NCBI GenBank assembly: GCA_943355025.1
Contig: CALRDW010000003.1
Span: forward strand, 7,680-71,679
DNA from: Candidatus Magasanikiibacteriota bacterium
Lineage (GTDB): Bacteria > Patescibacteriota > Patescibacteriia > Magasanikbacterales > 2-02-FULL-50-9b
Direction of reading: 5' to 3'
Length of the DNA: 64,000 nt
Shown one piece after another: positions 4,602 through 62,938 of this stretch (position 1 is the first letter of the stretch; the number at the start of each line of letters is the position of its first letter). Below the pieces are notes generated by a model that saw only the letters and a program-made list of their open reading frames with translations, did no database searches and was not told the origin of the DNA. A program made the translations under genes and the position numbers.

Positions 4602-4644
4602 CGGGTTGTTTTATTAGTGTCAAATTTTAACAAAAAACGGTTTT

Positions 4645-9930: not shown

Positions 9931-9961
9931 ACCATTTCTTGCTTTACTACTTGAACAGAGA

Positions 9962-9989
9962 GGCGTCCCTTTCGGGGGGCGCTTTTTTG
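9962..9989 (+). terminator. rho-independent terminator of the RRM gene
   Basis: GGCGTCCC-TTTC-GGGGGGCGC hairpin followed by TTTTTTG. Confidence 0.6.
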
Positions 9990-9998: not shown

Positions 9999-10079
9999 AT
10001 ACCCAAAGAAAATAATTCTACTTCTCAGGGAGAGATAAACAGGAACTCCCGTCGAAGTAGAATTATTTTCTTTGGGTAT
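9999..10079 (+). repeat. structured module copy A: 26-bp perfect inverted-repeat arms (9999-10024 and 10054-10079) around core TCAGGGAGAGATAAACAGGAACTCCCGTC
   Basis: left arm ATACCCAAAGAAAATAATTCTACTTC is the exact reverse complement of the right arm; homologous elements at 18037-18209, 62757-62836 and 27879-27959. Confidence 0.8.
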
Positions 10080-10107
10080 ACGTCAACACAAGTGGTATAC
10101 TGCTCAC

Positions 10108-11208
10108 ATGCTTCCGAATCCATTTGAAAAACCGCTGCCGAAATTAGAAGAAACAGATCCTCTTAAGAATGAGGAAATTGTTCGGAGCCTGCTCGGTGAG
10201 AAGGGTGTTGAACGATATCGAAAAATTTTAAATCGCACGAAAGTTTCTTCGGGGCCCGACGCGGTGTCTGTCGAAGAGCTCAAAGCGCTCGCAGCAGAAT
10301 TGAATGCGCAGCGATTGGCGAGTAAAAAAGAAACTACAGAGTGGCAGGTTGAACAAATTATTTCAAAGGATTATGAACGACAAATGGTATCTCTTCGCGC
10401 AATCAAATTTCTTAAAAGAAAAGACGGAATTTTAGGTTTAAAAGCTGTTGACGGAGAATTTTATCCAGCTCCATCAGAAAAAGAGATCGTACGATATTTT
10501 ATTTCAATTCCGAATATTAAAGAAAAGATATATCAAGGATTTACGCGACTACTCATTGTTCCGTTCGGGCGCTCGCTTGCTTTTTTGAACAAAAAAACAT
10601 CGGATTTGATTTTAGAGCACGGGGAGGGTGGCAGGCTTTTGAGTGAATCAGGCGAAAAGCTCTCCTTTGATTTGTCAGGACCGGTATACAATCAGTTCAA
10701 CAATGCTTTGTCCCGATATTATTCAGGGTCATTCGCTGTTCCGGGTACGGGAGGCAAACTTAAAACCGATTTTTTATCGGGACCACAAGATGGCATGCCA
10801 TTTCCAGGCTACAACATTATTTTATTGCAAGAAGATTTACATATTCCGAAGGAAGGCGAAGGCGTGACACGAAATGGAAGAAAACAAATTGAAGCGGGGA
10901 AATCAGCAATTGAGTATTTGGAATTATTACAAACAGATCCGCAGTATGCGGGTGAGCGTGGCCTCGCGCCCGAAGATTGGCTCACGTTATTTGCAACGCA
11001 ACTGTATCAGACAAACACTGTTATACATGAAACATCTGCGGCAATGCCGCCCACAGGAACGGCTGCACTTTTGATTGGCAGCGATTATTCACATAATGGA
11101 GATGTTTCGTTTGCACACTGGACTGACCGATTAGGCATGGCAGCAATTATGTTGATGAAGTCGCATCATTCAGGCGAAGGGGTAGGCCTTATAACCGCTG
11201 TCGGATAA
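10108..11208 (+). CDS. paralog A of an unknown-function protein family (conserved N-terminus MLPNPFEKPLPKLEETDPLKN)
   Basis: ATG lies 6 nt after a TATACT -10 (10096-10101), so leaderless; shares GFTRLLIVPFG, PFPGY..LLQED..IPKEGEG..GRKQ.EAG, EDWLTLFAT and a C-terminal TAVG with the 18235 and 37341 genes. Confidence 0.75.
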   Translation: MLPNPFEKPLPKLEETDPLKNEEIVRSLLGEKGVERYRKILNRTKVSSGPDAVSVEELKALAAELNAQRLASKKETTEWQVEQIISKDYERQMVSLRAIKFLKRKDGILGLKAVDGEFYPAPSEKEIVRYFISIPNIKEKIYQGFTRLLIVPFGRSLAFLNKKTSDLILEHGEGGRLLSESGEKLSFDLSGPVYNQFNNALSRYYSGSFAVPGTGGKLKTDFLSGPQDGMPFPGYNIILLQEDLHIPKEGEGVTRNGRKQIEAGKSAIEYLELLQTDPQYAGERGLAPEDWLTLFATQLYQTNTVIHETSAAMPPTGTAALLIGSDYSHNGDVSFAHWTDRLGMAAIMLMKSHHSGEGVGLITAVG

Positions 11209-18036: not shown

Positions 18037-18209
18037 CGCTCAAAAAGAATAAATGATACTTCTCAGGGAGAGATAAACAATACATCTTTCTCCGTCACAT
18101 CAGCATTTCAAAAATCTTCCGCTCAGGCTAAAATAAAAAATAGATGTCTCTCCGGGGGAGATAAACAGGAACTCCCGTCGAAGTAATAGTTTTTACTTTT
18201 GGGTATACG
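18037..18209 (+). repeat. structured module copy B (degenerate outer arms; core partially duplicated)
   Basis: TCAGGGAGAGATAAACA occurs at 18063 and again as GGGGGAGATAAACAGGAACTCCCGTC at 18153-18179; right arm GAAGTAATAGTTTTTACTTTTGGGTATACG. Confidence 0.7.
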
Positions 18210-18234
18210 TTCATTCAGGTGTTATACTACTCCC

Positions 18235-19437
18235 ATGCTTCCTAATCCTTTTCAAAAACAACTACCAGAGTTTAAAGACACAGACCCTCTTAAGAACAGA
18301 GAGATTGTTAGAGAACTCCTCGGACCAGAGGGAGTACATAAATATAGAAAGATTCTCGGAGATAATTCGGATTCTAATTTAAAGCGTCAGAAAGAAGTTT
18401 CTAAAGAAGATCTCCTTGCCATGGCAGCAGAAGCTCGCTCTAAAATAGATACTCTGTCCAGAGACTCAGTAAAGCCACTCATCGAGAGACTCGTGGAGCG
18501 CCAATACAACTCTCAGATCCAATCTCTGCAAGAGATTGGATTCCTAGAACCTCTCGTACCACAAAAAAAGAAAAGCTTTACCTTTTTCAAATCAAAAGAA
18601 CCAGAAGAAACTACACCAGAGAAACTAGGAGCTACAGACATCCTCGGTACCTTCCGAGAAGTCCCCTCAGAGGAAGCCATCAAAAATCACTTCCTCTCCA
18701 TTCCTAACATCAAACAAAAGATAGATCAAGGATTCACACGGCTTCTCATTGTTCCCTTTGGAACATCCCTCGACACCCTCCGTTCTAAAACAGGAGAACT
18801 TATCAAGAAGCATAAGAAAGCAAACAAACTTCTTGCAGAGGATGGAAGCAGTTTAGAACTCGACACTGCAACACCACTCTGGGCATGGGACGGCTATAAC
18901 AACGCAGACAAGTCAGGAGCGCTCGTTTATTATCCAGAGCACTTTGATAAAGAAAATCACAATGGTACAACCAAAACAGAACTTCTCTCAGGAGCTCAAC
19001 CAAGTCAAGCAAACTCTTCCACACCAAACACCAATCCATTCCCCGGCTACCGTATTCTTCTTATTCAGGAAGACACACAGATTCCACGAGAAGGAAAGGG
19101 AACAGCAAAAGCAGGGAGAGACAGTTTAGAAGCAGGTAAGTCTCCAAACGACTACTTAGAACTTCTTAAAACAGATCAGAGCTATTCTAAAGAACTCGGC
19201 CTCACTCCAGAAGACTGGCTTACTCTCTTTGCAACGAATCTCACAGAGAAGAACAAGGTTATCAATGACTGGCAGTCTAATAAAGACAGTATTAATTATC
19301 TAGTTGGTAGTTATTTCCCTGGTTCTGACCGCGTCCCGCGCGCGTACTGGGGCCGTGGCGGTCGGCGGGCGCGCTTGGACAGGGGCGGGCCGGCGGGTGT
19401 GAGCGGGGATTTTGGCGTTGCTGGCGCGGTGGGGTAG
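18235..19437 (+). CDS. paralog B of the same family (MLPNPFQKQLPEFKDTDPLKN...; Gly/Arg-rich GC-rich C-terminus ending AVG)
   Basis: ATG 6 nt after TATACT (18223-18228); shared motifs as paralog A. Confidence 0.75.
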   Translation: MLPNPFQKQLPEFKDTDPLKNREIVRELLGPEGVHKYRKILGDNSDSNLKRQKEVSKEDLLAMAAEARSKIDTLSRDSVKPLIERLVERQYNSQIQSLQEIGFLEPLVPQKKKSFTFFKSKEPEETTPEKLGATDILGTFREVPSEEAIKNHFLSIPNIKQKIDQGFTRLLIVPFGTSLDTLRSKTGELIKKHKKANKLLAEDGSSLELDTATPLWAWDGYNNADKSGALVYYPEHFDKENHNGTTKTELLSGAQPSQANSSTPNTNPFPGYRILLIQEDTQIPREGKGTAKAGRDSLEAGKSPNDYLELLKTDQSYSKELGLTPEDWLTLFATNLTEKNKVINDWQSNKDSINYLVGSYFPGSDRVPRAYWGRGGRRARLDRGGPAGVSGDFGVAGAVG

Positions 19438-19662
19438 AACCCCTTGGCCCCTTACTCCTTTTTTGTCTCCTTACTAAACCGGTGAAAAGTAACGTACCTC
19501 GGAGTACGTGCTCCGGAGAAATCGAGCAACTCACAACGATGCTCCTTGGTGCTTCACACAGTGAAATACCAGCATTGAGTAGTGAGAATAAAAGCAATTA
19601 TAATCCCCCACCGGTCCGTTACGGGCTCTTTTTGCGGTTCGATGATTTTAAAACGTGTTGGC

Positions 19663-27745: not shown

Positions 27746-27850
27746 TCACATCTGAGACATCATCAAAAAGCCACGGGTAATACGTGCCAATAAGAATGGC
27801 TCTGTGTCTTTAAACTCTGGGAGTTGTTTTTCAAAAGGGTTAGGAAGCAT
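27746..27850 (-). pseudogene. N-terminal fragment (34 codons) of the MLPNPF paralog family, copy D
   Basis: MLPNPFEKQLPEFKDTEP then divergent FLLARITRGFLMMSQM*; preceded by TATACT 6 nt upstream and module copy D. Confidence 0.6.
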
Positions 27851-27878
27851 GGAAGCAGTATAGCACTTGAATGAACGC

Positions 27879-27959
27879 ATACTCAAAGAAAATGCAGATG
27901 CCTCGACGGGGGCTCGTGTATATCTCCCCCTGAGAGGCATCTGCATTTTCTTTGAGTAT
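27879..27959 (-). repeat. structured module copy D: 26-bp perfect IR arms (27879-27904 / 27934-27959) around core (minus-strand reading TCAGGGGGAGATATACACGAGCCCCCGTC)
   Basis: arm ATACTCAAAGAAAATGCAGATGCCTC and its exact reverse complement; conserved upstream box (minus-strand) CAGTGATTCAACATATACTCAAAG. Confidence 0.8.
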
Positions 27960-28051
27960 ATGTTGAATCACTGTATTGAACTACTTATAAGCTTTTGAGC
28001 TCTGTTGAAAATAAATTAAAAACACCCACATTTTGATGGGTATTTTTAATT

Positions 28052-28132
28052 TGCCGCGGGCGGGAGTCGAACCCACAAGCCTTACGGCGGGGGATTTTAA
28101 GTCCCCTGTGTATACCATTCCACCACCGCGGC
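28052..28132 (-). tRNA. tRNA-Leu (anticodon TAA)
   Basis: GCCGCGG acceptor, anticodon stem GGGGA/TCCCC loop CTTAAAA, long variable arm GCCGTAAGGCTT, T arm GTGGG-TTCGACT-CCCGC; TTGACC-17-TACACT promoter on the minus strand just upstream. Confidence 0.8.
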
Positions 28133-28252
28133 ACAAGCCTATCGCAGTGTATAAAAAAACTCGGTTGCGGTCAATGTTATAAAAAATCCGCCGAGCACAC
28201 AAAGTGTTGGGCGGATGGATCGACTCTCGTTGAATAAGGCAGATCTGAGTCT

Positions 28253-29167
28253 CTAACAGCTACGATTCCACTCCTCGATGAGTGCAGGCAACTGCGTAAA
28301 GTCTTCGACGAAATGCGTCGCATGTTTGCTGTGCGTGTCGCATTTACGTCGGTTGACGAAAATCCGCATCGGAACCCCGAACGTTTTTGCGTGCAACATA
28401 TCTGTGTGCGTGTCGCCAATTTTCACTGCATGCGCGACAGAGACTCCGGTTCGGCGCTCGAATTCATCCCACGTTTCTTTGCCGCCTTTGCCGTGCGGGT
28501 CAGTGACGATAATGTTCGGCACAAGACTGAGAACGCGCTGTTTTTCAAACCGCTCGAGTTTTTTGCGGATTGAATACTCAGGATCGTAGAGCGGGCGATC
28601 ATTATCACGACGTTGGAGTCGCATGTCCGTTGTTGTTACGCCAACGATCTGCAGACCAAGTCCGTGCTCGAGCTGTTCGAGAATCGCTGCGCTGTCTTCG
28701 TACGGGCGACTGATCTTAGAAACAACATCCCAGAACAAATCATCGTGGTGTACGAGACTGTTGAGATGTCTCAGATCAAACGGATCCGAAATAAGTGAAT
28801 GCATCATGTATGCCGCGCGTCCAGTCCAGCTCCAATGGAGATCAGCTGGAAGCACGCCATTCTTTGATTCAACGTAGAGCGGAAAAGATCGCCGTAGCTC
28901 AGCTGACAAACGGCGATACTCGTTGATTCCTCGATTCGCAATCAGAATTTGGATCTGCTCGCGGAACGTGCCATGAACATGGTCCGTATCGATGTCCGGA
29001 TAGTCATTGAGAAGTGATTCTGCCGCCGCATACTCAGCATATTTTGCAACAAAGTCTGTTGCGCAATAATCCATGTCGCATGCAACTGCTCGAATAATTT
29101 GTTTACGTGGATTCACGGGTAACTCCTTGCTGAAAATATCCAGCGAAACGAGTGTACTGCAGTCCAA
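28253..29167 (-). CDS. hypothetical protein with HAD-like C-terminal segment
   Basis: 304 aa; C-terminal VAHAVKIGDTHTDMLHAKTFGVPMRIFVN is reminiscent of HAD motif III/IV; followed by a hairpin terminator at 28180-28216. Confidence 0.4.
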   Translation of the reverse strand: MDCSTLVSLDIFSKELPVNPRKQIIRAVACDMDYCATDFVAKYAEYAAAESLLNDYPDIDTDHVHGTFREQIQILIANRGINEYRRLSAELRRSFPLYVESKNGVLPADLHWSWTGRAAYMMHSLISDPFDLRHLNSLVHHDDLFWDVVSKISRPYEDSAAILEQLEHGLGLQIVGVTTTDMRLQRRDNDRPLYDPEYSIRKKLERFEKQRVLSLVPNIIVTDPHGKGGKETWDEFERRTGVSVAHAVKIGDTHTDMLHAKTFGVPMRIFVNRRKCDTHSKHATHFVEDFTQLPALIEEWNRSC

Positions 29168-29175
29168 AAATTAAA

Positions 29176-29574
29176 TCAAGGCGTAGTGCAGCCGGAGAGG
29201 GAATATAATTGGTCAATCGAAAGAACACCTTCGTGAGTTTGGTTGTCTGGCGTTATCCATGTTGGGTAGCTTTTAATTCCTGCTGCGTCACATGCGGCTG
29301 TTTGCTGATTATCGGGCCCTGCACATTCGACGTATGGAAGATTTGCTGCAGCGGAACCAAATAATGACTTTTGCTCAGCGCAATGCGGGCACCAAGACGC
29401 GCCATAAAATTTGAGGCCTTTTTTGGAAATGCACGCGGCAAGTGAGGGTGCGCGTGGGTCTGTTTGGTTTGAACGCGAGTGAATAATCGCGAGTCCGACG
29501 ATTACTGCAGCAATAAGACCAATTACAGTGTATAAAAAAAGGTTGTTGGATTGTTCTGAAGTGCTGGTTTTCAT
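29176..29574 (-). CDS. membrane-anchored thioredoxin-like protein (WCPHC)
   Basis: N-terminal TM helix then ASWCPHCAEQK thioredoxin active site; start taken at MKTSTSEQ. Confidence 0.65.
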   Translation of the reverse strand: MKTSTSEQSNNLFLYTVIGLIAAVIVGLAIIHSRSNQTDPRAPSLAACISKKGLKFYGASWCPHCAEQKSLFGSAAANLPYVECAGPDNQQTAACDAAGIKSYPTWITPDNQTHEGVLSIDQLYSLSGCTTP

Positions 29575-29661
29575 GTTGACGGAGATTATCTGTTCTGTTA
29601 TAGTTGCTCCGCTCATTCTAGCATGGGAGAGAGTAGTAAGCTAGGGTGTAATTCTATGATC

Positions 29662-29733
29662 GCCGCGGTAGCTCATCGGTAGAGCGCTGCCCTGAAGAGG
29701 CAGGCGTGGCCAGTTCGACTCTGGCTCGCGGCA
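29662..29733 (+). tRNA. tRNA-Phe (anticodon GAA)
   Basis: GCCGCGG-TA-GCTC...anticodon stem CTGCC/GGCAG loop CTGAAGA; T arm GCCAG-TTCGACT-CTGGC. Confidence 0.85.
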
Positions 29734-29735
29734 TA

Positions 29736-29767
29736 TAAAAAACAGATGCTTCGGTATCTGTTTTTTA
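29736..29767 (+). terminator. rho-independent terminator after tRNA-Phe
   Basis: ACAGATGCTTCGGTATCTGT hairpin + TTTTTT. Confidence 0.6.
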
Positions 29768-29836
29768 ATTTCTCAATAAGCACATGGCTTTTTAATTGAC
29801 ACGTCTTGCTCAGCCGCGATATCATTATGCGCGCGC

Positions 29837-29907
29837 GGGCCTGTAGTAAAGTGGTATTACGCGGCATTCGCATTGCTGAGGCGGGAGTCCGATTCTCCCC
29901 AGGTCCA
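29837..29907 (+). tRNA. tRNA-Ala (anticodon CGC) with non-canonical T-loop TCCGATT
   Basis: GGGCCTG acceptor with G3:U70 Ala identity pair; anticodon stem CGGCA/TGCTG loop TTCGCAT; T arm GGGAG-TCCGATT-CTCCC; followed by terminator. Confidence 0.6.
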
Positions 29908-29910
29908 CAT

Positions 29911-29943
29911 AAAAATTCCCACCAGTTCGGTGGGAATTTTTAT
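29911..29943 (+). terminator. bidirectional hairpin terminator
   Basis: ATTCCCACC-AGTTC-GGTGGGAAT flanked by A- and T-tracts. Confidence 0.6.
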
Positions 29944-29974
29944 TTGCCTCTGTAGGCCGTACGAGGCGGTTTCT

Positions 29975-30226
29975 TTACATTTTCTTGTCGCCCTTGCCCA
30001 TTCCGCATGCGCCGCCTTGGCAGCATCCTGAACATTTGCACATGAGAAGCATGAATAGAGCGGAGACACCTACGATAATGTAGATGACGCGTTCAACAGA
30101 CGAGCCTGCGCCAAAAAGTGAGGCAACGAGGTTGTACTTAAAAACACCGACAAGACCCCAGTTTATAGCGCCAACCCAAACGAGGGCTGCAGCGACTTTG
30201 TGACCGACGCACATGCCTGAATGCAT
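29975..30226 (-). CDS. DUF378-family small membrane protein
   Basis: AALVWVGAINWGLVG motif characteristic of DUF378; Cys-rich C-terminus. Confidence 0.65.
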   Translation of the reverse strand: MHSGMCVGHKVAAALVWVGAINWGLVGVFKYNLVASLFGAGSSVERVIYIIVGVSALFMLLMCKCSGCCQGGACGMGKGDKKM

Positions 30227-30300
30227 ACGAACATTTTTTAAATGAATAACTGAGTTAAGTATAACACATTATTTAAGAGGTCTGTTATACTATACTCACT

Positions 30301-30852
30301 ATGTTTCTTGATATTGGTCTCGGAATTCTTATCGCAATTTGGGTCAGCCATTTTTTTGGTGTTCCTTTAACAACTGGTTTATTAGGGTTTGGAGTGTTTT
30401 TTTCTTTAATACCTGACATTGATTTTTTGGTTGAACTTTTTAAACACGGGAGTGTTGGCGGCAAGTTTGTGCGGGAACATAGGGAGCTGTTACACTTTCC
30501 TATTCTGTATGCTCCGCTTATTTTGTGCGTGTATTTAATTTTTGGGAGCATGTGGGCATTAATGCTCGGTTTTGGATTGCTTGGACATTTTTTGCATGAC
30601 AGTGTTGGTATTGGTTGGGGCGTCAAATGGTTATGGCCAATTTCAAAGAGGTCCTTTAAGTTTTTTTCTGAACGAAATGGCGCGTTCTCGAGGCGTTTAT
30701 TGGTTTCATGGAGTCCGCAGGAACTTCCAGGCGTTGTTGCAGAACACGGTGATCCTCATTGGATGAGAAATATCTATTTGCGTTTGCACCCAATCGGAGT
30801 AATCGAATTTTTATTTTTTGTCGGGGCCTTAATCATGTTGTATTTCTATTAG
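30301..30852 (+). CDS. membrane-bound metal-dependent hydrolase, YdjM/DUF457-like
   Basis: LIPDIDF, HRELLHFP, HFLHDSVGIGWGVKWLWP resemble YdjM-family conserved His/Asp segments. Confidence 0.55.
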   Translation: MFLDIGLGILIAIWVSHFFGVPLTTGLLGFGVFFSLIPDIDFLVELFKHGSVGGKFVREHRELLHFPILYAPLILCVYLIFGSMWALMLGFGLLGHFLHDSVGIGWGVKWLWPISKRSFKFFSERNGAFSRRLLVSWSPQELPGVVAEHGDPHWMRNIYLRLHPIGVIEFLFFVGALIMLYFY

Positions 30853-30944
30853 AAATGTATTGCAGGCTTTTTCTTTCAACTGTTGACAGCGCGTTTACAT
30901 TTCGGTACAATAACCCCGCTTTATTGCTATCTTTGAAAGTACCT

Positions 30945-31020
30945 GGGCCCTTAGCTTAGTTGGTAGAGCGCCGCATTTGCAATGCGGAGGTCGAGAGTTC
31001 GAATCTCTCAGGGTCCACCA
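30945..31020 (+). tRNA. tRNA-Ala (anticodon TGC), CCA encoded
   Basis: GGGCCCT acceptor with G3:U70, anticodon stem CCGCA/TGCGG loop TTTGCAA, canonical T arm GAGAG-TTCGAAT-CTCTC. Confidence 0.9.
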
Positions 31021-31026
31021 GAACTT

Positions 31027-31100
31027 CGGGGCGTAGCTCAGTTGGCTAGAGCACCTGCTTTGGGAGCAGGGGGTCGCACGTTCAAGTCGTGTCGCCCCGA
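31027..31100 (+). tRNA. tRNA-Pro (anticodon TGG)
   Basis: CGGGGCG acceptor, anticodon stem CCTGC/GCAGG loop TTTGGGA, T loop TTCAAGT. Confidence 0.85.
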
Positions 31101-31104
31101 TAAA

Positions 31105-31137
31105 AAAATACCACCAATTTCGGTGGTATTTTTTTAT
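31105..31137 (+). terminator. rho-independent terminator after tRNA-Ala/Pro
   Basis: ATACCACC-AATTTC-GGTGGTAT + TTTTTTT. Confidence 0.65.
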
Positions 31138-31195
31138 CTCGACTGAGGTCTCAGACTTGCCAAACGCGGCGCCCAGGCGTACACTAGTCACCGAT

Positions 31196-31270
31196 GCGGG
31201 CATCGTATAGTGGCTATTATGGCTGCCTTCCAAGCAGCAGAGACGGGTCCGATTCCCGTTGCCCGCTCCA
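31196..31270 (+). tRNA. tRNA-Gly (anticodon TCC), CCA encoded, T-loop TCCGATT
   Basis: GCGGGCA acceptor, anticodon stem GCTGC/GCAGC loop CTTCCAA, T arm ACGGG-TCCGATT-CCCGT. Confidence 0.8.
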
Positions 31271-31278
31271 AAGAAAAA

Positions 31279-31305
31279 TGCTCACCCTTGTGGTGGGCTT
31301 TTTTC
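31279..31305 (+). terminator. bidirectional terminator (tRNA-Gly / LTD gene)
   Basis: GCTCAC...GTGGGC hairpin + TTTTTT. Confidence 0.5.
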
Positions 31306-33356
31306 TAATGTGTGATTGGTCGTTTGAATATTTTCTCAAATAATTTTGTAACAAACGCACGGATACGAAGAATAAATGCTTGAGCTTGTCGTGGACTGCG
31401 AAGTCGACGGCTGCTCCAGGTAATCAGAATATGTAGAAGTAGGAATGTTACTACTGTTGCGCCGAGCAAAAACAAACTTGATAGCGAATTTTGTTTTGTT
31501 GGAATAGCAATCCCTCCTGTATTTGCCGATGTTAATATAATACTGCTCTGCGTCTGGGGAACAAAGGTTGTTTGCGCCGCCTCATCGGTTAAAAACACAC
31601 CTTGAATTGCAATTGTATCGCCAAGTTTTACTCGTGTGCCATCTGAATAATGTCCGCGAGCTGGAACAAAGACATCCTCAGATTCTGTGTGAATGAGGAA
31701 ACTGGACGTTCCAGTATCCGTTACCTTTCCCATGATACGTGTTGATGAGACAGTTGAAGTGCCGAGAATTTTTATAGGCCCTTGTGCCGATATTTGTAGC
31801 AGCATTCGATCTGTTCTAAATTTTTTTGCTGCACGAAATTCGATTCGAGTTCCAGCTTTTAAATCTAATAATTCTGGTCTATTGCCGAGTGCTTCGACCA
31901 TATGTGAATCAACAATAAAACGATGTGCGCTGATTATTCCGGGTGGCACGGTTACAACACCTATATATTCATATGCGTGGGGCTGTGAAATAACTGCAGC
32001 ATGGAGTGGTGCAGCAGCTACTACCGCGTTTGTGGGCACTAACAGTTGCTTTGTCTCAGTAATTATTGATTTTTCTGATATCTGAGCGATTGGTTTATTT
32101 ATTTGTGTGGCGACTGGAGTAGTCGTTGTTGCCGCGGCCGCGTTTACACGCAGGTCATGATGGAGTTCTGCGACGCTGCCAACAGAATCACGTGCGCGCA
32201 CGAGAATTGTATACAGACCCGGCGCATCGTATTTGTGCGTTGTTGTTGTCCCAGAAATTTCAAAACCGTCTCCGAAATTCCAGATAATCTCCGCGAGGTC
32301 ATTATTGGGGTCCGTAGTATCTTCGGCAGAAACAGCGCACGGATTATTTACCACAAGCGGCTCTCCGCAAAGTGTGGCGCGAATAGTTGGAGGCGCGGGG
32401 AGTGATATGTACTCATTAGGTGCGTTTGGGGTTGGCTGGACGGTCCATTGCCACGCGCGAGCAATTTTTGCATACGCAGCGTTGATAGAAGCTGACTCAC
32501 TATAAATAACCTGGTCGATTATTTTTCCATCAGTATCTAATAGTTGCACCATTTCGCCACCAGAATCGTTGAGTGCAATCATTGTTTGTTTTCGCAGCCA
32601 CATGCGGCGGCTGCCAGGACCGAGCATCGTGTTTTCACCATGACTTCCGAGTGCATACGCAGCCCCCGATGCATCACGCAGCCATAGTCCTGCAACATCG
32701 ACGCCTTCCATCGAAGTGTTTTCTATCTCGATAAATTCATCGCCCGAAGTTGGATGCGGAAATAACTCGCTGAGCACAATTGGCCACTGAATGGCATGCG
32801 TAATGCGCGCCGCTATTGCGTCAGGCCCCGAAGTTAGTATGGTCGTAGTTTGTGTCGGCCCGTTTTGCGGCGTGGGAGTGCTCGTAGCTGAGCTTGGTGC
32901 ACTGCTCGTGCTCGTGGCGGTGGTTGATGCGCTATGAAATAGACTGACGACAGAGGAATCCTCGAATGTTGATACATAGGAATTAGTATTTACGAGTGCG
33001 ACGGTTGTTCCGCGATCTACAAGTGAGAGCGATGTGTAGGTCATCTGTGCCTGAAGCGCGAATCGTCCATTTTTATTAGCAACTGTATAGGTACTGCCAG
33101 CGTCAATTTGTGCCCCAGTTGTAAAATTTTTCTTCTGGATTGTCGTACTTCCATCACTACGCACTTGAATCGACCACCGCGATATATCGACGGGCCCCTG
33201 ACCTGTGTTGCGCAGTAGAATAAATTCGTCGTCTGCGCCCGGCGATCCTGTTTCAGCGGAATCGATTATTACGGCTGCGTATGCGGTATGAGCAAAGCCG
33301 AACGCAAGCGCAATCGTTGCTGCCCAAATTCCAAAAATAAATGGATATAATCGCAT
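31305..33356 (-). CDS. secreted/membrane-anchored protein with two lamin-tail domains and a PKD domain
   Basis: signal peptide; LTD-like SPGADDEFILLRNTG and PTSGDEFIEIENTS; PKD-like NFGDGFEISGTTTTHKYDAPGLYTILVRARDSVG; C-terminal TM helix. Confidence 0.7.
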   Translation of the reverse strand: MRLYPFIFGIWAATIALAFGFAHTAYAAVIIDSAETGSPGADDEFILLRNTGQGPVDISRWSIQVRSDGSTTIQKKNFTTGAQIDAGSTYTVANKNGRFALQAQMTYTSLSLVDRGTTVALVNTNSYVSTFEDSSVVSLFHSASTTATSTSSAPSSATSTPTPQNGPTQTTTILTSGPDAIAARITHAIQWPIVLSELFPHPTSGDEFIEIENTSMEGVDVAGLWLRDASGAAYALGSHGENTMLGPGSRRMWLRKQTMIALNDSGGEMVQLLDTDGKIIDQVIYSESASINAAYAKIARAWQWTVQPTPNAPNEYISLPAPPTIRATLCGEPLVVNNPCAVSAEDTTDPNNDLAEIIWNFGDGFEISGTTTTHKYDAPGLYTILVRARDSVGSVAELHHDLRVNAAAATTTTPVATQINKPIAQISEKSIITETKQLLVPTNAVVAAAPLHAAVISQPHAYEYIGVVTVPPGIISAHRFIVDSHMVEALGNRPELLDLKAGTRIEFRAAKKFRTDRMLLQISAQGPIKILGTSTVSSTRIMGKVTDTGTSSFLIHTESEDVFVPARGHYSDGTRVKLGDTIAIQGVFLTDEAAQTTFVPQTQSSIILTSANTGGIAIPTKQNSLSSLFLLGATVVTFLLLHILITWSSRRLRSPRQAQAFILRIRAFVTKLFEKIFKRPITH

Positions 33357-33453
33357 AAATCGTACAGAATTAATTATTCTTTCTGTTTCTACTGGGTTCC
33401 ACTAATCATGATTTTTGTCAAGTGTTGATAAACGGTGGAAAGTTGGCTATCAT

Positions 33454-33540
33454 GCCTTAACAGGGGCAGGTGGCGGAATTGGTATACGCGCTGGCTTTAG
33501 GAGCCAGTCCTGGAAACGGGTTGAGGGTTCAAGTCCCTCC
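33454..33540 (+). tRNA. tRNA-Leu (anticodon TAG), CCA encoded
   Basis: GGGCAGG acceptor, anticodon stem CTGGC/GCCAG loop TTTAGGA, long variable arm, T loop TTCAAGT. Confidence 0.85.
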
Positions 33541-33595
33541 CTGCCCACCAGTTTTGAGTTTCAAACGAGGGGCAAGTCCCGAAATTAATAATTCT

Positions 33596-34594
33596 ATGGA
33601 TCAGCCCGCAATCACGGTTTCCAATCTTACAAAAAAGTTTTCTTTTACTGCGAAAGAGGAGTCTTCGGGCTGGATAAAAAATTTATTCTCACCTGTTACA
33701 AAGGAAATCGTGGCGGTTGATGGTGTATCATTTTCTGTTGAGCACGGAGAACGCATTGCATTTATTGGTCCAAACGGCGCGGGAAAATCGACAACGATTA
33801 AAATGTTAACGGGAATTTTATTTCCAACGTCCGGCACGGTTTCGATTCTAGGGCTCGATCCAACAAAAGATCGAAAAAAACTCGCGTACCAAATCGGTAC
33901 AGTTTTTGGCCAACGCTCTCAACTTCTGCCAAATCTTCCACTGACGGATTCGCTCGAATTTTTCGGCGTGATGTATGACCTGCCGGAAAAAATAATTCAG
34001 AAACGAATCGTCGAACTTGTCGATTTATTTGATCTCGGTTCATTCATTTCGCAACCTGTCCGCAAACTTTCCCTCGGCCAGCGCATGCGCGCGGAGGTTG
34101 CAGCGTCACTCATTCACAAACCAAAAATTATTTTGCTCGACGAACCGACGATCGGCCTTGATGTTGTTGCAAAAAAAGCGCTACGCGATCTACTCATCAG
34201 AATAAATAAGGAAGAAAATACAACAATTTTTTTAACCTCGCATGACGTAGGCGATATCGAATCGCTCTGTGACAGAACTATCGTTATTAATCATGGATCG
34301 GTGATTAAAGATTTGCCGACGCAGGACTTGGCACGTTCGTTCGTGTACGAAAAATTTATTGATCTTGTCGCAGAGCACAAATTCAGCACGTTCCCAAAAT
34401 TGCCCGCGGGCATTCGGTACGCAACAACAAACGCAAACAAAATAACAGTTGTTGTTGATATTAATAAAATTTCTGTTCAGGCTGCGCTCATAAAATTACT
34501 TACCTTGTTCGAAGTCGAAGATATCGATGTATACAACGCTGATTTAGAAACGGTTATTCGACATATTTATGAGCGGAATTCGGATCGCGCGTAA
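33596..34594 (+). CDS. ABC transporter ATP-binding protein (ABC-2 type)
   Basis: Walker A GPNGAGKST, signature LSLGQRMR, Walker B ILLDEPTIGLD; the longer 33470 ORF overlaps the tRNA so ATG 33596 is used. Confidence 0.85.
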   Translation: MDQPAITVSNLTKKFSFTAKEESSGWIKNLFSPVTKEIVAVDGVSFSVEHGERIAFIGPNGAGKSTTIKMLTGILFPTSGTVSILGLDPTKDRKKLAYQIGTVFGQRSQLLPNLPLTDSLEFFGVMYDLPEKIIQKRIVELVDLFDLGSFISQPVRKLSLGQRMRAEVAASLIHKPKIILLDEPTIGLDVVAKKALRDLLIRINKEENTTIFLTSHDVGDIESLCDRTIVINHGSVIKDLPTQDLARSFVYEKFIDLVAEHKFSTFPKLPAGIRYATTNANKITVVVDINKISVQAALIKLLTLFEVEDIDVYNADLETVIRHIYERNSDRA

Positions 34595-35369
34595 AATTAT
34601 TTCGACGCTCGTTAAAGATCGGATTCACTATCCAGCGCGGCTTATTATTGATACGTTTGCTGTTATTGCGCGTTGCGGGCTGCTTCTAATTTTATATGCA
34701 CATGTATTTCGAATAAATGGCGGCGTTATAAACGGAACGACATTTATTTTTGCCGCGTGGAGCATCTTTTTTTATTTTTCTTTTTCTATTTTGCGCCTCC
34801 GTGATATTTCGCGCGCGATAATGCAGGATGTACAAAGCGGAACGATTGAGATGCTTTTGAGTAAACCGTTTTCGTATTTGTGGTATCGCGCATGTTGGCA
34901 AATCGGTTCGGGAATTTATTCATTCATAACAATTTTTGTCGTTGCGACTATCATTCTTGGTTTTTGGATTGGATTTCCGTCAACTATGCTCGTCGGAGTT
35001 TTTATTCCAACATTTACACTAACATTTTTGTGTGGCTCAGTGCTTTCGCTTTTGGTATATTCGGCAGTGGGCCTTTTGGCATTTTGGATGGAGGACGTCA
35101 ACCCTGTGTTTTGGGTTGTTGATAAAGCGGTTATGATTCTCGGCGGCTCGTATCTTCCGGTTGCTCTATTTCCACCACTCATGTTTAAACTCGCTCTCTA
35201 CAGTCCCTTTGGCGCAACACTATTTGTTTCACACACGGTATCTCCGTCGTGGCAAACAACGTGGACCACACTTGTTGGTGCTCAATTATTTTGGATAGCT
35301 ATTTTTGGTCTGGTTGTGTATTGTATGTTTGAAAGAGCGCGGCGGAAAGTGTCGATAAACGGCGGCTAA
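34569..35369 (+). CDS. ABC-2 family transporter permease
   Basis: 6 TM helices, overlaps ATPase gene end; ABC-2 permease-like. Confidence 0.65.
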   Translation: MSGIRIARKIISTLVKDRIHYPARLIIDTFAVIARCGLLLILYAHVFRINGGVINGTTFIFAAWSIFFYFSFSILRLRDISRAIMQDVQSGTIEMLLSKPFSYLWYRACWQIGSGIYSFITIFVVATIILGFWIGFPSTMLVGVFIPTFTLTFLCGSVLSLLVYSAVGLLAFWMEDVNPVFWVVDKAVMILGGSYLPVALFPPLMFKLALYSPFGATLFVSHTVSPSWQTTWTTLVGAQLFWIAIFGLVVYCMFERARRKVSINGG

Positions 35370-35371
35370 TT

Positions 35372-36166
35372 ATGGCGAATGAATTACAGTTTGCGTTGTA
35401 CGCGATAAAAAAGAATATTCAAAGCAGTGCGGAACTTCGCACCAGTTTTTTAATGAATGTCATCGGCATGTTCGTTAACAATACCGCATTCATTCTCCTG
35501 TGGGTGTTTTTTGTAAAATCAGTTGGGGTTATTGGCGGTTGGACAGCGGCAGATATTATCGGCTTGCAGGGGTATACGTCTCTATGTTACGGCGTAGTTT
35601 TTTCAACATGCTTCGGGATTAGAAAAATTCCTGATTATATATCCTCGGGTGTGTTTGACCGCTTTATGCTCTCACCGAAAAATTTATTAATGCGCACCGC
35701 CACGTCAGCGTTCAGTGTTTCTTCGTTGGGCGACATAATTTTTGGCGTCGTCTGCCTCTGCATCTACGCGGTTTTAATTCATGCAGGACTGATCCAAGTT
35801 GCGCTCATGCTCGCGATAGCATGTATTGCGTCGATAATTTTTTTATCTGCAATACTTATTATAAATTCGCTCAGTTTTTTCTTTTCAGATTCGAGCGCTG
35901 TAACGGGGAGTCTGTTTGAGCTCTTTCTAACGCCATCGCTCTTTCATGGTGGTGCATTCCAAGGTGCGATGCGATTTATTTTTACGTTTATTATTCCATC
36001 ATTGCTCGTTGGAGCGATTCCAGTTGAAATTGTGCGCGACGCATCATTTGAAAAATTTTTACTTGTGGGCGTTCTTGCTGTAATCTGGTTTTTGTTTTCA
36101 ATTTATATTTTTAATCGGTCGGTCAGGCACTACGAGAGTTCGAACTTTATGACATTTGGAAGTTAA
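35372..36166 (+). CDS. ABC-2 family transporter permease (second subunit)
   Basis: polytopic membrane protein directly following the first permease. Confidence 0.6.
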   Translation: MANELQFALYAIKKNIQSSAELRTSFLMNVIGMFVNNTAFILLWVFFVKSVGVIGGWTAADIIGLQGYTSLCYGVVFSTCFGIRKIPDYISSGVFDRFMLSPKNLLMRTATSAFSVSSLGDIIFGVVCLCIYAVLIHAGLIQVALMLAIACIASIIFLSAILIINSLSFFFSDSSAVTGSLFELFLTPSLFHGGAFQGAMRFIFTFIIPSLLVGAIPVEIVRDASFEKFLLVGVLAVIWFLFSIYIFNRSVRHYESSNFMTFGS

Positions 36167-36179
36167 CGCGTGAATTACT

Positions 36180-37298
36180 ATGAAAATGATTGATACTTCG
36201 CAGGCCGCAAAATCAATACTCAGGGTCACAGAAGATTTGATCCGCATTCACTCGACTGCGGACCGAACCGATGAACTATACCACGCGATTCAATATGTCG
36301 CGGATTATTTTTCTGATTTGCCAGAGCTTGTCATACATCGATATGAAAGTAATAACAAACCATCGATTGTAATTAGTTTTGAGGAAACGCTTGAACCACA
36401 GGTCATGCTGGTTGGTCACGTCGACGCTGTTCCTGCACCTGATGAGTTGTTCGAACCACGCTATGAATCGGGCCGGTTATATGCACGCGGCGCATGTGAC
36501 ATGAAAAGCGAAGTTGCTGTAATGATGACGCTCATGCGGGATTTTTATTCGGCGAGTCCACGACCGTCGCTTGCGCTCATGCTCACGAGTGACGAAGAAA
36601 TTAACGGCAACAATGGTGCTCGATATCTTCTACACGATATTGGGTATCGCGCGAAAGTTGCGCTTGTGCCCGATGGCGGCGCTGAGCCAAGCCGAATAAT
36701 TCTCAAAAGTAAGGGAGTGCTCCACCTACACATTGGTGTTCGCGGACGTGCGGCTCACGGCTCGCGTCCGTGGCTCGGAAAAAATGCGATTGAAGATTTA
36801 TACGCGCTTTACGAACAGATTAAAACATTATTTCCACCGACAGATGATCCGGAACATTGGCACAGCACCTGTATCGTTGGAACAATTTCTGGGGGTGTTG
36901 CAACAAATCAGATTCCAGATTTTGCCGAGTGCGGAATTGATATTCGGTTTACAGAAGAACACGCGCTTGTGGATATTCTCTCGAAAATTCGCGCGTTTGC
37001 GCCGGACGCGGACATCGAAATTTTGTCGAAAGGCCATCCGATGTTTACGTCGCGTTCGAACCAGTTTGTCATGCTGTATGAGGAAGCTGTTCGGACGCTG
37101 TTCAATGTCCCGGAGCTTCAAGAAGAAATTACGCATGGCGCAACCGACGGTCGATTTTTTGCCGAATTCGGAATTCCTGTTATTGTGTCGCGCCCAGTTT
37201 CTGATGACCAACACAGCCCTAATGAATGGCTTGACCTTGCAAGTCTCGAAGATTTTAAGCGACTGTATGAACGTGCGATCACATTATTTCTTCGGTAA
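36180..37298 (+). CDS. M20-family metallopeptidase (ArgE/DapE-like)
   Basis: GHVDAVPA...GRLYARGACDMK metal-binding motifs. Confidence 0.75.
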   Translation: MKMIDTSQAAKSILRVTEDLIRIHSTADRTDELYHAIQYVADYFSDLPELVIHRYESNNKPSIVISFEETLEPQVMLVGHVDAVPAPDELFEPRYESGRLYARGACDMKSEVAVMMTLMRDFYSASPRPSLALMLTSDEEINGNNGARYLLHDIGYRAKVALVPDGGAEPSRIILKSKGVLHLHIGVRGRAAHGSRPWLGKNAIEDLYALYEQIKTLFPPTDDPEHWHSTCIVGTISGGVATNQIPDFAECGIDIRFTEEHALVDILSKIRAFAPDADIEILSKGHPMFTSRSNQFVMLYEEAVRTLFNVPELQEEITHGATDGRFFAEFGIPVIVSRPVSDDQHSPNEWLDLASLEDFKRLYERAITLFLR

Positions 37299-37340
37299 AT
37301 GTGATATACTAGTCTAAACTAGACTTTTATAGAGAAACAT

Positions 37341-38369
37341 ATGCCTGTTGATCCTTTTGAAATGTACCCACTTGAGCCACAGCCCGAAGAGCACAAAAAA
37401 GAATCTTTAAAATTTCAACCAAAGGATGAATTTTATTTTGATCATGCAGCCGCACTTAAGCATTCCGCAGAATGGAGTTTGAATGAATTACCGAAACAAT
37501 ATAAAAAGAATACTGAAATTTTGGATGAGCTTGGATTACTCGAGAATTCTAAGGGAGAGCGAGCAATTAAAAGCGTTGATGGTAAGACGTATTCATATCC
37601 TACCGTAGAAAACATACAGAAGTATTTTGAGAGCATGCCAAACATTGAGATGAAGCATGCTCAGGGTTTTAACCGATTGCTGATTGTTCCGTTCGGGTTG
37701 CCAATTGAAAAAATAGGAGAAGCAGTTAGTAAAAATTTAATACATGGAATACGTTCTGGCAGGTACCTTACTGCAAATGGAGAATCTTTCCGTGGTGACG
37801 CAGACGAGGACATGATTATGATTGCCCGCTCCATTTTGGGAGAACGAGGCTGGGGAGATCTTAAATATTATCCAGACTCGTTTGATCAAAAAAAAGATTC
37901 AGGTAAAACAAAATTGGAAATTTTGGGTGGAGGTTCTTCGGTTCAACCATTTCCAGGGTTTCATGTGCTTTTGTTGCCTGAAACAATTGAAATGCCAAAA
38001 GAGGGAGAGGGCAAAACAGTGGCGGGTCGAAAGCAATTTGAATGCGGAATGAGTGCTGAAGATGTTTTAGAATCTTTAAAGACAGACCCTGCATTCAAGC
38101 TTGAATGTGGTTTAACTATTGAAGATTGGCTTTTGTTTTTAGCGGCAGAGACTCGTAGTACAGGACGCTTACCTGGGTGTGCTAATGACACAGATTTTTT
38201 TGATGTAAGCGATCTGCCGCCATCAGCAATATTGTTGGGTAATTTAATTGGAAAAACTGACATAACGGTGTGGGCTGGGTGGTACCCTAGACACCAAACG
38301 TACGGGGTCGGGCATCTTGATGCTGATGATGGTCATGACAAGCTTTGCGCAATGACGGCTGTTAAATAA
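37341..38369 (+). CDS. paralog E of the unknown-function family (divergent N-terminus MPVDPFEMYPLEP)
   Basis: shares GFNRLLIVPFG, QPFPGFHVLLLPETIEMPKEGEGKTVAGRKQFECG, EDWLLFLAAE and C-terminal TAVK with paralogs A and B; no upstream hairpin module, but TGTGATATACT and palindrome AGTCTAAACTAGACT at 37301-37325. Confidence 0.7.
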   Translation: MPVDPFEMYPLEPQPEEHKKESLKFQPKDEFYFDHAAALKHSAEWSLNELPKQYKKNTEILDELGLLENSKGERAIKSVDGKTYSYPTVENIQKYFESMPNIEMKHAQGFNRLLIVPFGLPIEKIGEAVSKNLIHGIRSGRYLTANGESFRGDADEDMIMIARSILGERGWGDLKYYPDSFDQKKDSGKTKLEILGGGSSVQPFPGFHVLLLPETIEMPKEGEGKTVAGRKQFECGMSAEDVLESLKTDPAFKLECGLTIEDWLLFLAAETRSTGRLPGCANDTDFFDVSDLPPSAILLGNLIGKTDITVWAGWYPRHQTYGVGHLDADDGHDKLCAMTAVK

Positions 38370-43265: not shown

Positions 43266-43302
<37 letters not shown>

Positions 43303-43887: not shown

Positions 43888-43919
<32 letters not shown>

Positions 43920-45819: not shown

Positions 45820-45850
<31 letters not shown>

Positions 45851-45968
45851 AGGTTAGTGATCCGACGATCCAACATAGGATGGTCGAAGCTCAACGGATA
45901 AAAGCTACTCTGGGGATAACAGGCTGATCGGGTCCAAGAGTCCATATCGACGACCCGGTTTGGCACCT

Positions 45969-62756: not shown

Positions 62757-62836
62757 ACTCAAAAGTAAAAACTATTACTTCTCAGGGGGAGATGAACGAG
62801 GGGCCCCCGTCGAAGTAATAGTTTTTACTTTTGAGT
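62757..62836 (+). repeat. structured module copy C: 25-bp perfect IR arms (62757-62781 / 62812-62836) around core TCAGGGGGAGATGAACGAGGGGCCCCCGTC
   Basis: left arm ACTCAAAAGTAAAAACTATTACTTC equals the reverse complement of the right arm; upstream box CGGTGATTCAACATGCACTCAAAAG. Confidence 0.8.
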
Positions 62837-62866
62837 ATAGGTTCACTCAGGTGTTATACTGCTTCC

Positions 62867-62938
62867 ATGCTTCCTAATCCTTTTCAAAAAACTCTTATAA
62901 GGGAGCTTGTTCATGTCTCAAACACGACTTGGAACTGA
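62867..62938 (+). pseudogene. N-terminal fragment (23 codons) of the MLPNPF paralog family, copy C
   Basis: MLPNPFQKTLIRELVHVSNTTWN*; ATG 6 nt after TATACT (62855-62860); contains AAGGGAG SD for the next ORF. Confidence 0.55.

What the first reader, a model, noticed from the sequence alone, without database searches (positions are those of the whole stretch)
10108..11208. Paralogous protein family of unknown function (three full copies) with conserved N-terminus and shared C-terminal ...TAVG
Paralogs A (10108-11208), B (18235-19437) and E (37341-38369) share blocks not assignable to a known family. The blocks are (Y/N)(F/H)(I/L)SIPNIK.KI.QGFTRLLIVPFG, NPFPGY.ILL(I/L)QED..IP(K/R)EG(E/K)G....GR..(I/L)EAGKS..(E/D)YLELL(Q/K)TD, and GL(A/T)PEDWLTLFAT. 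Paralogs A and B end with ...TAVG or ...AVG, and E ends with TAVK. The regions between blocks are highly divergent, and B carries a GC-rich Gly/Arg tail. A and B share a nearly identical first 50 aa with no signal peptide. A conserved head and tail with a variable middle, plus head-only fragments elsewhere, is reminiscent of polymorphic or cassette-type families. Function is unknown, and the Lys/Glu-rich hydrophilic head argues against Sec export.
Basis: seen in the sequence. Interest (0 to 1): 0.65.

Follow-up and report, generated by a model that had tools for sequence, protein, structure and literature searches.

The report
Orphaned DGR hypervariable-protein gene family
The three look-alike genes belong to a large, unnamed family from candidate-phyla-radiation bacteria whose C-terminal end is rewritten elsewhere by a diversity-generating retroelement (DGR); here one copy still shows that mutational footprint, but no retroelement is present in the window.

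Summary
A, B and E are true paralogs, with tblastn E-values of 1e-80 to 1e-33, and two head-only fragments exist.

No Pfam, NCBIfam, PADLOC or PDB match exists, but the family is large: 831 clusters at 50% identity, from Magasanikbacteria, Moranbacteria and Berkelbacteria.

Distant members are proven DGR targets. Their last ~114 nt are a variable repeat (VR), and a template repeat (TR) lies next to a bAvd gene and a reverse transcriptase. TR/VR mismatches fall almost only at TR adenines (15/30 vs 1/84; 7/27 vs 0/86).

B's "GC-rich Gly/Arg tail" is the mutagenised VR: 5% A and 52% G, against 36% A in the gene body.

Between B and its orthologs, VR differences sit at codon positions 1 and 2 (12, 12, 1). 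In the gene body the counts are 35, 30, 82 (p = 4e-7).

A and E have decayed VRs. The window holds no TR, RT or Avd, and the TR that follows B's ortholog in a sister contig is missing here.

Fragment C replaces a full paralog found in a 99.86%-identical strain.

This is a new member of a known kind, and its cellular role is unknown. A conserved structured element upstream of these genes is the most novel item.

The parts
10108..11208 (+). Paralog A, 366 aa. The family core spans about residues 85-366. An N-terminal helical extension carries the MLPNPFEK... head.
   Evidence: AF2 model pLDDT 85.7.
11092..11205 (+). VR-homologous last 38 codons of A, decayed, with no DGR footprint.
   Evidence: A content is 25% against 31% in the gene body. 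Against the L010 TR, 53/86 non-A positions mismatch, which is about random.
18235..19437 (+). Paralog B, 400 aa, the copy that carries a DGR footprint.
   Evidence: AF2 model of residues 100-400 has pLDDT 89.2.
19321..19434 (+). Variable repeat (VR) of B. The last 21 nt (19414-19434, GGCGTTGCTGGCGCGGTGGGG) are the constant, GC-rich, IMH-like end that encodes ...GVAGAVG.
   Evidence: Composition is A 5% and G 52%, against A 36% and G 18% in the body. Differences from orthologs by codon position are 12, 12, 1, against 35, 30, 82 in the body (Fisher p=4e-7). Against the L010 TR, 22/28 adenines are mismatched but only 11/86 other positions.
19438..19621 (+). Spacer downstream of B, conserved with sister contigs up to the point where their TR begins. 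It contains an inverted-repeat block (19489-19518) and a promoter-like TTGAGT-18-TATAAT (19575-19604) pointing at the missing TR.
   Evidence: The TR is present in L010 at 11452-11565, a truncated relic is in L005 at 20231-20320, and it is absent here.
37341..38369 (+). Paralog E, 342 aa. It lacks the upstream module and starts 42 nt after the M20 peptidase gene. Its VR is decayed.
27791..27850 (-). Head-only fragment C: the first ~19 codons of a paralog, then unrelated sequence, upstream of a PAP2 gene.
   Evidence: L091 is 99.86% identical to window 37850..27791 and continues into the full 374-aa paralog P0008.
62867..62896 (+). Head-only fragment D: the first ~10 codons, followed by a 64-66-aa ORF with no Pfam match.
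9999..10107 (+). Upstream module of A. It has a long hairpin (10002-10076), then TTGGGT (10072-10077), an 18-nt spacer and TATACT (10096-10101), then 6 nt before the ATG.
   Evidence: dG -48.6, z -9.1.
18039..18234 (+). Upstream module of B. It has a truncated left half-hairpin (18039-18079), an insert, then a proximal copy whose left arm no longer pairs (18147-18204). The promoter-like TTGGGT-18-TATACT (18199-18228) is intact.
   Evidence: (z -0.11).
27851..27957 (-). Upstream module of fragment C: hairpin at 27957..27881 and promoter-like site at 27886..27857.
   Evidence: (dG -61.4, z -9.1).
62757..62866 (+). Upstream module of fragment D: hairpin at 62757-62836 and promoter-like site at 62831-62860.
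   Evidence: (z -6.8).

Best explanation
A, B and E (plus P0020 just outside the window) belong to a large protein family restricted to the candidate phyla radiation (CPR, Patescibacteria). Its members are the variable proteins, i.e. targets, of diversity-generating retroelements (DGRs).

How the system works where it is complete (shown in relatives): a template repeat (TR) beside a bAvd gene and a reverse transcriptase is transcribed and copied into cDNA with random misincorporation opposite adenines. That cDNA replaces the last ~114 nt of the target gene, the variable repeat (VR). About a dozen AAY-templated codons in the C-terminal ~38 residues are randomised, while the scaffold residues W..R..R.A.L....P.......G.R.AV and the 3' constant end are kept.

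Inference: the randomised residues form a ligand-binding surface on a compact alpha/beta domain, probably a divergent C-type-lectin-like fold. The invariant residues K140, K219, E283 and E289 serve a constant function. The protein has no export signal, so it probably binds an intracellular or cell-contact ligand.

In this window: B carries the unmistakable DGR footprint. A and E are older paralogs whose VRs have decayed into ordinary sequence. C and D are truncated copies. There is no TR, RT or Avd in the 64 kb, and the TR that follows B's ortholog in a sister contig is missing here. The copies are therefore either remote targets of an element elsewhere in the genome or, more likely for B, recently orphaned with a frozen VR.
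For: Family breadth: 831 clusters at 50% identity with E<=1e-3 and 415 with E<=1e-30, with the core at profile positions ~80-370.

Proven DGRs in relatives. In L007 the VR is 4591-4704 and the TR 5142-5255, with mismatches at 15/30 TR adenines against 1/84 other positions. In L008 the VR is 3386-3498 and the TR 3744-3856, with 7/27 against 0/86. bAvd and RVT_1 genes lie next door.

Of 77 metagenome loci, 15 have Avd and/or RT beside the family gene, and 11 have adenine-specific TR/VR pairs.

B's footprint: composition, codon-position pattern and adenine-biased mismatch to the neighbouring-strain TR. VR position-3 differences number 1-3 where 8-13 are expected from the body rate (P=7e-4 to 2e-5). 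This implies repeated resetting from a shared template.

A TR lies directly downstream of the B-type ortholog in L010, and a TR relic lies in L005.

Weak fold hits from two independent confident models are enriched for C-type-lectin-fold proteins: EgtB, FGE and TvpA, and DCIR and MCL.

Literature: CPR DGR targets lack recognisable domains (PMC8144416). One CPR VR class, UVR4, sits in Midasin/AAA proteins (PMC5758913), which matches the AAA_5 fusions found here.
Against: The window has no TR, RT or Avd, and none lies in the flanks held for close relatives: L005, L089, L090 and L091 were scanned for RT/Avd and carry no called RT or Avd gene; only L005 has a TR relic.

The only TRs found in close relatives do not perfectly template the present VRs: 8-15 of 86 non-A positions mismatch in the three closest cases (B, L010, L090). 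The true donor was therefore not seen.

B's VR is identical in a second near-identical assembly, P0018. This gives no sign of ongoing diversification.

A and E show no footprint at all.

The C-type-lectin fold is not statistically supported: best Foldseek E is 0.07-0.6, and those top hits are spurious.

The cellular ligand and role are unknown.
Confidence: 0.8

Rival explanations
1. The family is primarily an enzyme or effector with a conserved active site (K140, K219, E283, E289, R258, and the GKTK motif). DGR diversification is a secondary add-on in some lineages. The window copies act through that constant site, not through variable binding.
For: Four residues are invariant and about 18 nearly invariant across 150 diverse members, all outside the VR. 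Many paralogs persist without an adjacent DGR. A and E keep the core motifs although their VRs have decayed.
Against: No enzyme family matches by sequence or fold. The C-terminal VR scaffold W.R..R.A.L....P.......G.R.AV is kept throughout the family. This rival is compatible with the main explanation rather than exclusive of it.
Confidence: 0.12
2. It is a polymorphic-toxin or cassette-type family. A constant head and tail would be recombined with variable middles drawn from silent head-only or partial cassettes.
For: There are multiple paralogs, head-only fragments, and a better-conserved N-terminus.
Against: No partial internal cassettes exist in the window. Fragment C is a truncation of a gene that is intact in a 99.86%-identical strain. 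Middle-region differences follow the normal position-3-rich pattern. No toxin or immunity domain was found. The hypervariability is C-terminal and TR-templated.
Confidence: 0.03
3. The gene plus its conserved upstream hairpin is a mobile element. On this view the protein is a transposase or homing enzyme, the hairpin is its end, and the head-only fragments are abortive insertions.
For: The hairpin-promoter-head module recurs at four sites in 64 kb, one of them next to a tRNA gene. Copy number differs between strains.
Against: Paralogs are 31-47% identical, not recent copies. The loci show no second element end or target duplications. There is no nuclease, recombinase or transposase similarity. 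Family members are demonstrably DGR targets.
Confidence: 0.03

Closest known systems
DGR variable proteins of CPR bacteria (DGR clade 2 of Roux et al. 2021, PMC8144416; the CPR set with 'UVR' classes of Wu et al. 2018, PMC5758913, including UVR4 in Midasin/AAA proteins; Paul et al. 2017, recalled from memory)
   Same: The lineage is the same. There is no recognisable domain, signal peptide or TM segment. The VR is C-terminal, with bAvd and RT beside it, and some members are AAA-ATPase (AAA_5) fusions.
   Different: I could not match sequences to the published UVR classes because the supplements are not held. The window copies lack the retroelement and include decayed and truncated paralogs. 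That situation is outside what the published surveys detect, since they require a VR next to an RT.
TvpA (Treponema denticola) and Mtd (Bordetella phage BPP-1), C-type-lectin-fold DGR variable proteins
   Same: The VR occupies the extreme C-terminus, uses AAY-codon diversification, keeps conserved scaffold residues between variable ones, and ends in a GC-rich constant segment. Treponema also has remote targets far from its RT (PMC5758913).
   Different: There is no detectable sequence similarity and only sub-threshold fold hits (TvpA 2y3c: 39 columns, E=3.9). TvpA is a lipoprotein and Mtd a phage tail-fibre tip, whereas this family has no export signal. It also has an extra ~140-residue conserved N-terminal subdomain with invariant Lys and Glu residues.
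DGR-diversified NTPase 'antigen sensor' conflict systems of multicellular bacteria (PMC10907252; abstract only read)
   Same: In both, an NTPase is fused to a C-terminal DGR-diversified domain. Here the fusion partner is AAA_5, and 10 of the 77 metagenome loci, plus L008 and L009, have a VWA-protein neighbour. This suggests an intracellular sensing role.
   Different: The ATPase class differs (MoxR/midasin-like AAA_5 here). The window paralogs have no ATPase and no VWA partner, only a helical N-terminal extension.

Membership tests
DGR target (variable) protein | Homology to proteins that carry a demonstrated VR. | tested here: met
   A profile built from A, B, E and 22 relatives retrieves P0046 and P0040 at E<=1e-69. 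Both have TR/VR pairs.
DGR target (variable) protein | A VR with a cognate TR in the same genome, differing only at TR adenines. | tested here: not met
   No TR-like repeat of the A, B or E 3' ends exists in the 64-kb window. The rest of the genome could not be searched. In sister contigs a TR follows the B-type gene, but 8-15 of 86 non-A positions also differ for the three closest VRs, B, L010 and L090.
DGR target (variable) protein | Reverse transcriptase and accessory Avd gene nearby. | tested here: not met
   tblastn with the L007 and L008 RT and Avd proteins finds nothing in the window or in L005. Both are present beside distant family members.
DGR target (variable) protein | Mutational footprint: an adenine-depleted VR, with variation confined to codon positions 1-2 of AAY-templated codons and a constant GC-rich 3' end. 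| tested here: met
   Met for B only. Composition is A 5% in the VR against 36% in the body. Codon-position counts are 12, 12, 1 against 35, 30, 82 (p=4e-7). The constant end is at 19414-19434. Not met for A and E.
DGR target (variable) protein | Ongoing diversification, i.e. VR heterogeneity between near-identical strains or within a population. | tested here: inconclusive
   B's VR is identical in the only near-identical second assembly, P0018. No read-level data are available.
C-type lectin (CLec / FGE-like) fold | Significant structural similarity of the VR-bearing domain to CLec-fold structures. | tested here: inconclusive
Polymorphic toxin / cassette system | A toxin or immunity domain, and silent partial cassettes that recombine into an expression locus. 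| tested here: not met
   No such domains were found. The only partial copies are 5' heads of 10-20 codons. One of them is the truncation of a gene that is intact in a sister strain.

The most novel reading that the evidence does not exclude
The conserved element just upstream of these genes may be a new structured RNA, or a DNA palindrome, that travels with the 5' head of orphaned DGR-target paralogs and controls their expression or duplication. It has a long outer stem whose sequence differs in every copy yet stays perfectly paired. That stem encloses either a ~29-nt conserved hairpin or a ~110-nt three-stem core that shows compensatory changes and G.U pairs on the gene strand. It abuts a leaderless-type promoter. 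Together with the paralog array of frozen and decayed VRs, this would show DGR-generated variants being 'hard-wired' as a germline-like gene family after the retroelement is lost.
Probability: 0.25. Interest if true: 0.6.

Novelty: new member of a known kind. Interest (0 to 1): 0.4.

Why it matters
It turns three 'hypothetical proteins' into members of a defined family. This family may be among the larger DGR-target families in CPR bacteria, with 831 clusters at 50% identity and no curated model. A Pfam-type model and two confident structure predictions are now within reach.

It also documents what published DGR surveys cannot detect, because they require a VR next to an RT: targets left behind without the retroelement. 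The window shows every stage, from fresh footprint (B) to decayed VRs (A, E) to truncated copies (C, D), plus strain-level presence or absence. This bears on how symbiotic, genome-reduced bacteria gain and lose programmed protein diversity.

The biological ligand and role remain unknown, so the finding is useful but not surprising to a DGR specialist.

Tried and rejected
- **Curated libraries:** Pfam, NCBIfam and PADLOC scans of A, B and E gave nothing meaningful.
- **PDB sequence search:** profiles of 3 and of 150 sequences gave no hit below E=0.3.
- **DGR parts in the window:** searches for TR, RT and Avd were negative.
- **Genome-collection scan:** the alignment-based scan gave only 4 loci because the derived patterns were too narrow.
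- **Head-module pattern:** scanning it in JGI metagenomes and IMG/VR gave 0 hits.
- **Rfam:** scans of the window and of L089 and L002 found no family for the upstream element.
- **Contig look-ups:** P0004 and P0017 were not on record. Paul et al. 2017 is not held, and the Wu et al. supplements are not held.
- **PD-(D/E)xK nuclease, VWA/MIDAS or P-loop readings** of the motifs: considered from the sequence only and dropped, because no search supported them.
- **Gene conversion as the cause of the conserved head:** rejected. A and B differ mostly at synonymous positions there.
- **Mis-assembly as the cause of fragment C:** cannot be fully excluded. The break follows a ~20-nt string shared by paralogs.

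Full report
**1. Observation**

They are clearly homologous. tblastn gives A-B 1.7e-80, A-E 4.5e-42 and B-E 2e-33. All the quoted blocks and the endings TAVG, GAVG and TAVK are present.

Two head-only fragments also exist. C lies on the minus strand (ATG 27850) and D on the plus strand (ATG 62867).

None of the proteins has a hydrophobic segment or a signal peptide.

The first 45 residues of A and B are 64% identical. The nucleotide differences there are mostly synonymous (15, 9, 26 by codon position). The head is therefore conserved as a peptide, not homogenised as DNA.

The window belongs to an 85.9-kb contig that carries a fourth paralog, P0020, outside the window.

**2. What the family is**

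Curated libraries are silent: Pfam, NCBIfam and PADLOC, and PDB sequences.

A word-indexed search found only 22 relatives, several per contig, and the only named hit is from Magasanikbacteria.

A profile search of 1.84 billion representatives found 831 clusters with E<=1e-3 and 415 with E<=1e-30. These match profile positions ~80-370, which is the ~290-residue core without the lineage-specific head. Named members come from Magasanikbacteria, Moranbacteria and Berkelbacteria.

Some members carry an N-terminal AAA_5 (MoxR/midasin-type) ATPase.

Across 150 diverse members, K140, K219, E283 and E289 (A numbering) are invariant. The C-terminus follows the pattern VP.A.W.R..R.A.L....P.......G.R.AV(R/G), with very variable residues in between.

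**3. The decisive lead**

Looking up where two distant members are encoded showed a bAvd gene immediately downstream in both cases.

Repeat finding then revealed that the last ~114 nt of each gene are repeated a few hundred bases downstream. The two copies differ almost only where the downstream copy has adenine:
- L007: 15 of 30 adenines mismatched, against 1 of 84 other positions.
- L008: 7 of 27 adenines, against 0 of 86.

The neighbouring ORFs are a reverse transcriptase (RVT_1) and bAvd. This is the defining signature of a diversity-generating retroelement (mechanism as summarised in PMC5758913).

In 77 further family loci from metagenomes, 15 have Avd and/or RT beside the family gene and 11 show adenine-specific TR/VR pairs. 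Ten have a VWA-protein neighbour, and several contigs carry two to four paralogs.

The family is therefore a DGR variable-protein family. Many of its copies are not adjacent to an element.

**4. The window copies**

B carries the footprint.
- Against B-type orthologs (L010, L005b), VR differences fall at codon positions 1 and 2 (12, 12, 1). Body differences fall mostly at position 3 (35, 30, 82). Fisher p is 4e-7.
- Position-3 differences in the VR number 1-3 where 8-13 are expected from the body rate (P = 7e-4 to 2e-5). This is what repeated resetting from a shared template predicts.
- The variable codons are NNC or NNT in all strains, consistent with AAY template codons.

A TR lies ~250 nt downstream of the B-type ortholog in L010 (11452-11565, at the contig end). 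A truncated TR relic lies behind the paralog in L005.

Against the L010 TR, B is mismatched at 22 of 28 adenines but only 11 of 86 other positions. The bias is strong. However, this TR is not the exact donor.

In the window the spacer after B is conserved up to ~19621, including a TTGAGT-18-TATAAT promoter-like site at 19575-19604. The TR itself is missing. No TR, RT or Avd exists anywhere in the 64 kb.

B's VR is identical in the one near-identical second assembly.

A and E have VR regions of ordinary composition (25-26% A) that do not align to any TR better than chance. I read them as older paralogs whose VRs have decayed.

**5. Head-only fragments and copy number**

Contig L091 is 99.86% identical to window 37850..27791. 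It then continues into a full 374-aa paralog, P0008, whereas the window diverges 58 nt into that coding sequence.

Fragment C is therefore the stump of a gene that is intact in a sister strain. The caveat is that the breakpoint follows a short string shared by paralogs, so a mis-join cannot be fully excluded.

C now sits in front of a PAP2 gene. D sits in front of a small ORF with no Pfam match.

The neighbours of A, B and E are unrelated housekeeping genes: RRM protein, MBL hydrolase, SpoIID, bPH_2, M20 peptidase and RlmH-type SPOUT methyltransferase. There is no operon clue to function.

**6. Structure and mechanism**

AlphaFold models of A (pLDDT 85.7) and of B residues 100-400 (pLDDT 89.2, pTM 0.88) are confident.

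Shown: homology to proven targets, the VR position and B's footprint.

Inferred: the VR residues form a variable binding surface on a divergent lectin-like scaffold. The invariant Lys and Glu residues serve a constant function. The proteins act inside the cell or at cell contact, since no export signal exists. This matches the report that CPR DGR targets lack membrane or other domains (PMC8144416).

The AAA_5 fusions with VWA neighbours hint at a sensor-type role, as proposed for NTPase-linked DGR targets in other bacteria (PMC10907252). That is analogy only.

**7. Comparison and novelty**

CPR DGRs and their domain-less targets are known (PMC8144416; PMC5758913, which describes CPR VR classes UVR1-6 and Midasin/AAA targets for UVR4; Paul et al. 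2017, from memory).

This family very probably overlaps those classes, so I rate it a new member of a known kind.

What is not in those surveys is the retroelement-less state seen here, because they require a VR next to an RT. The window shows a paralog array with fresh, decayed and truncated copies.

**8. Upstream element (outside the finding)**

A, C, D and close relatives share a non-coding module in this order:
- a hairpin with a 23-26-bp perfectly paired outer stem, whose central part differs in every copy;
- a conserved inner stem-loop (TCTCAGGGnGAGATAAACAnGAnCnCCCGTCGA);
- TTGnGT-18-TGnTATACT;
- six bases, then the ATG.

In the six-copy alignment, 11 of 30 pairs show compensatory changes.

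Upstream of P0020 (L089) and of a distant Magasanikbacteria homolog (L002), the same outer stem encloses a ~110-nt three-stem core. There, 9 of 38 pairs are compensatory, none is broken, and G.U pairs lie on the gene strand. No Rfam family matches.

B's proximal hairpin is disrupted. E lacks the module.

The spacing implies a leaderless mRNA, so the element lies upstream of the predicted start. Whether it is an RNA or a DNA palindrome, and what it does, is unresolved.

**9. Verdict**

- The best explanation has confidence 0.8 for family identity and for B's footprint.
- Whether B is still targeted in trans is open.
- Interest is moderate (0.4).

Noticed in passing
window 9999-10079 (+), 27957-27881 (-), 62757-62836 (+), disrupted copy at 18039-18204 (+); L005 ~9900-9975 and ~18773-18848; L010 ~9900-9975; long version at L089 ~2120-2255 and L002 ~2825-2965: A conserved structured element sits directly upstream of the family's promoter. 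Its long outer stem differs in sequence in every copy but stays perfectly paired (11/30 pairs compensatory). The stem encloses either a short conserved hairpin or a ~110-nt three-stem core (9/38 pairs compensatory, 0 broken, G.U pairs on the gene strand). No Rfam match. Function unknown.
   Followed up: partly
window 10072-10107, 18199-18234, 27886-27851 (-), 62831-62866: A conserved extended -10 promoter-like site, TTG(A/G)GT-18-TGnTATACT, ends 6 nt before the ATG and there is no Shine-Dalgarno sequence. This implies leaderless mRNAs. The extreme N-terminal peptide M(L)PNPF(E/Q)K recurs, in diverged forms, in some distant family members (MPNQFEK in P0074, MYSNPFD in P0022).
   Followed up: partly
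window 27791 (breakpoint) vs L091 10058: A 99.86%-identical strain carries a full 374-aa paralog and different downstream genes where the window has only 19 codons followed by a PAP2 gene. This is a strain-level rearrangement, or possibly an assembly join, at a paralog head next to tRNA-Leu (28051-28133).
   Followed up: yes
L008 4712-4760, L007 6222-6240, also L022, L040, L058: The DGR reverse-transcriptase genes of several CPR loci contain a (GA)n microsatellite of 8 to more than 22 units at the same position, just before the LPIGN..SQ motif. The two RT halves are out of frame in L007, L008 and L022, and in frame in L040 and L058. This is possible phase variation of the retroelement, or repeat-length assembly error.
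   Followed up: partly
L008 822-7281 and 10 of the 77 metagenome loci (L019, L022, L027, L033, L035, L040, L049 and others): AAA_5-fused family members and their DGR are followed by a VWA-domain protein. This is the classic MoxR-type AAA+/VWA pairing, here joined to a hypervariable domain.
   Followed up: partly
window 42700-46695: The 23S rRNA gene spans 3,996 nt for a 2,925-nt model. It contains a LAGLIDADG_1 homing-endonuclease ORF (44796-45347, E=8e-24) and a second 175-aa ORF on the opposite strand (43992-44519) with no Pfam hit. It is an intron-bearing rRNA, as is common in CPR bacteria.
   Followed up: partly
window 19489-19518 and 19575-19604: The spacer between B's stop codon and the position of the lost TR is conserved with sister contigs. 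It holds an inverted-repeat block and a near-consensus TTGAGT-18-TATAAT site oriented towards the missing TR. It is possibly the relic TR-RNA promoter.
   Followed up: partly
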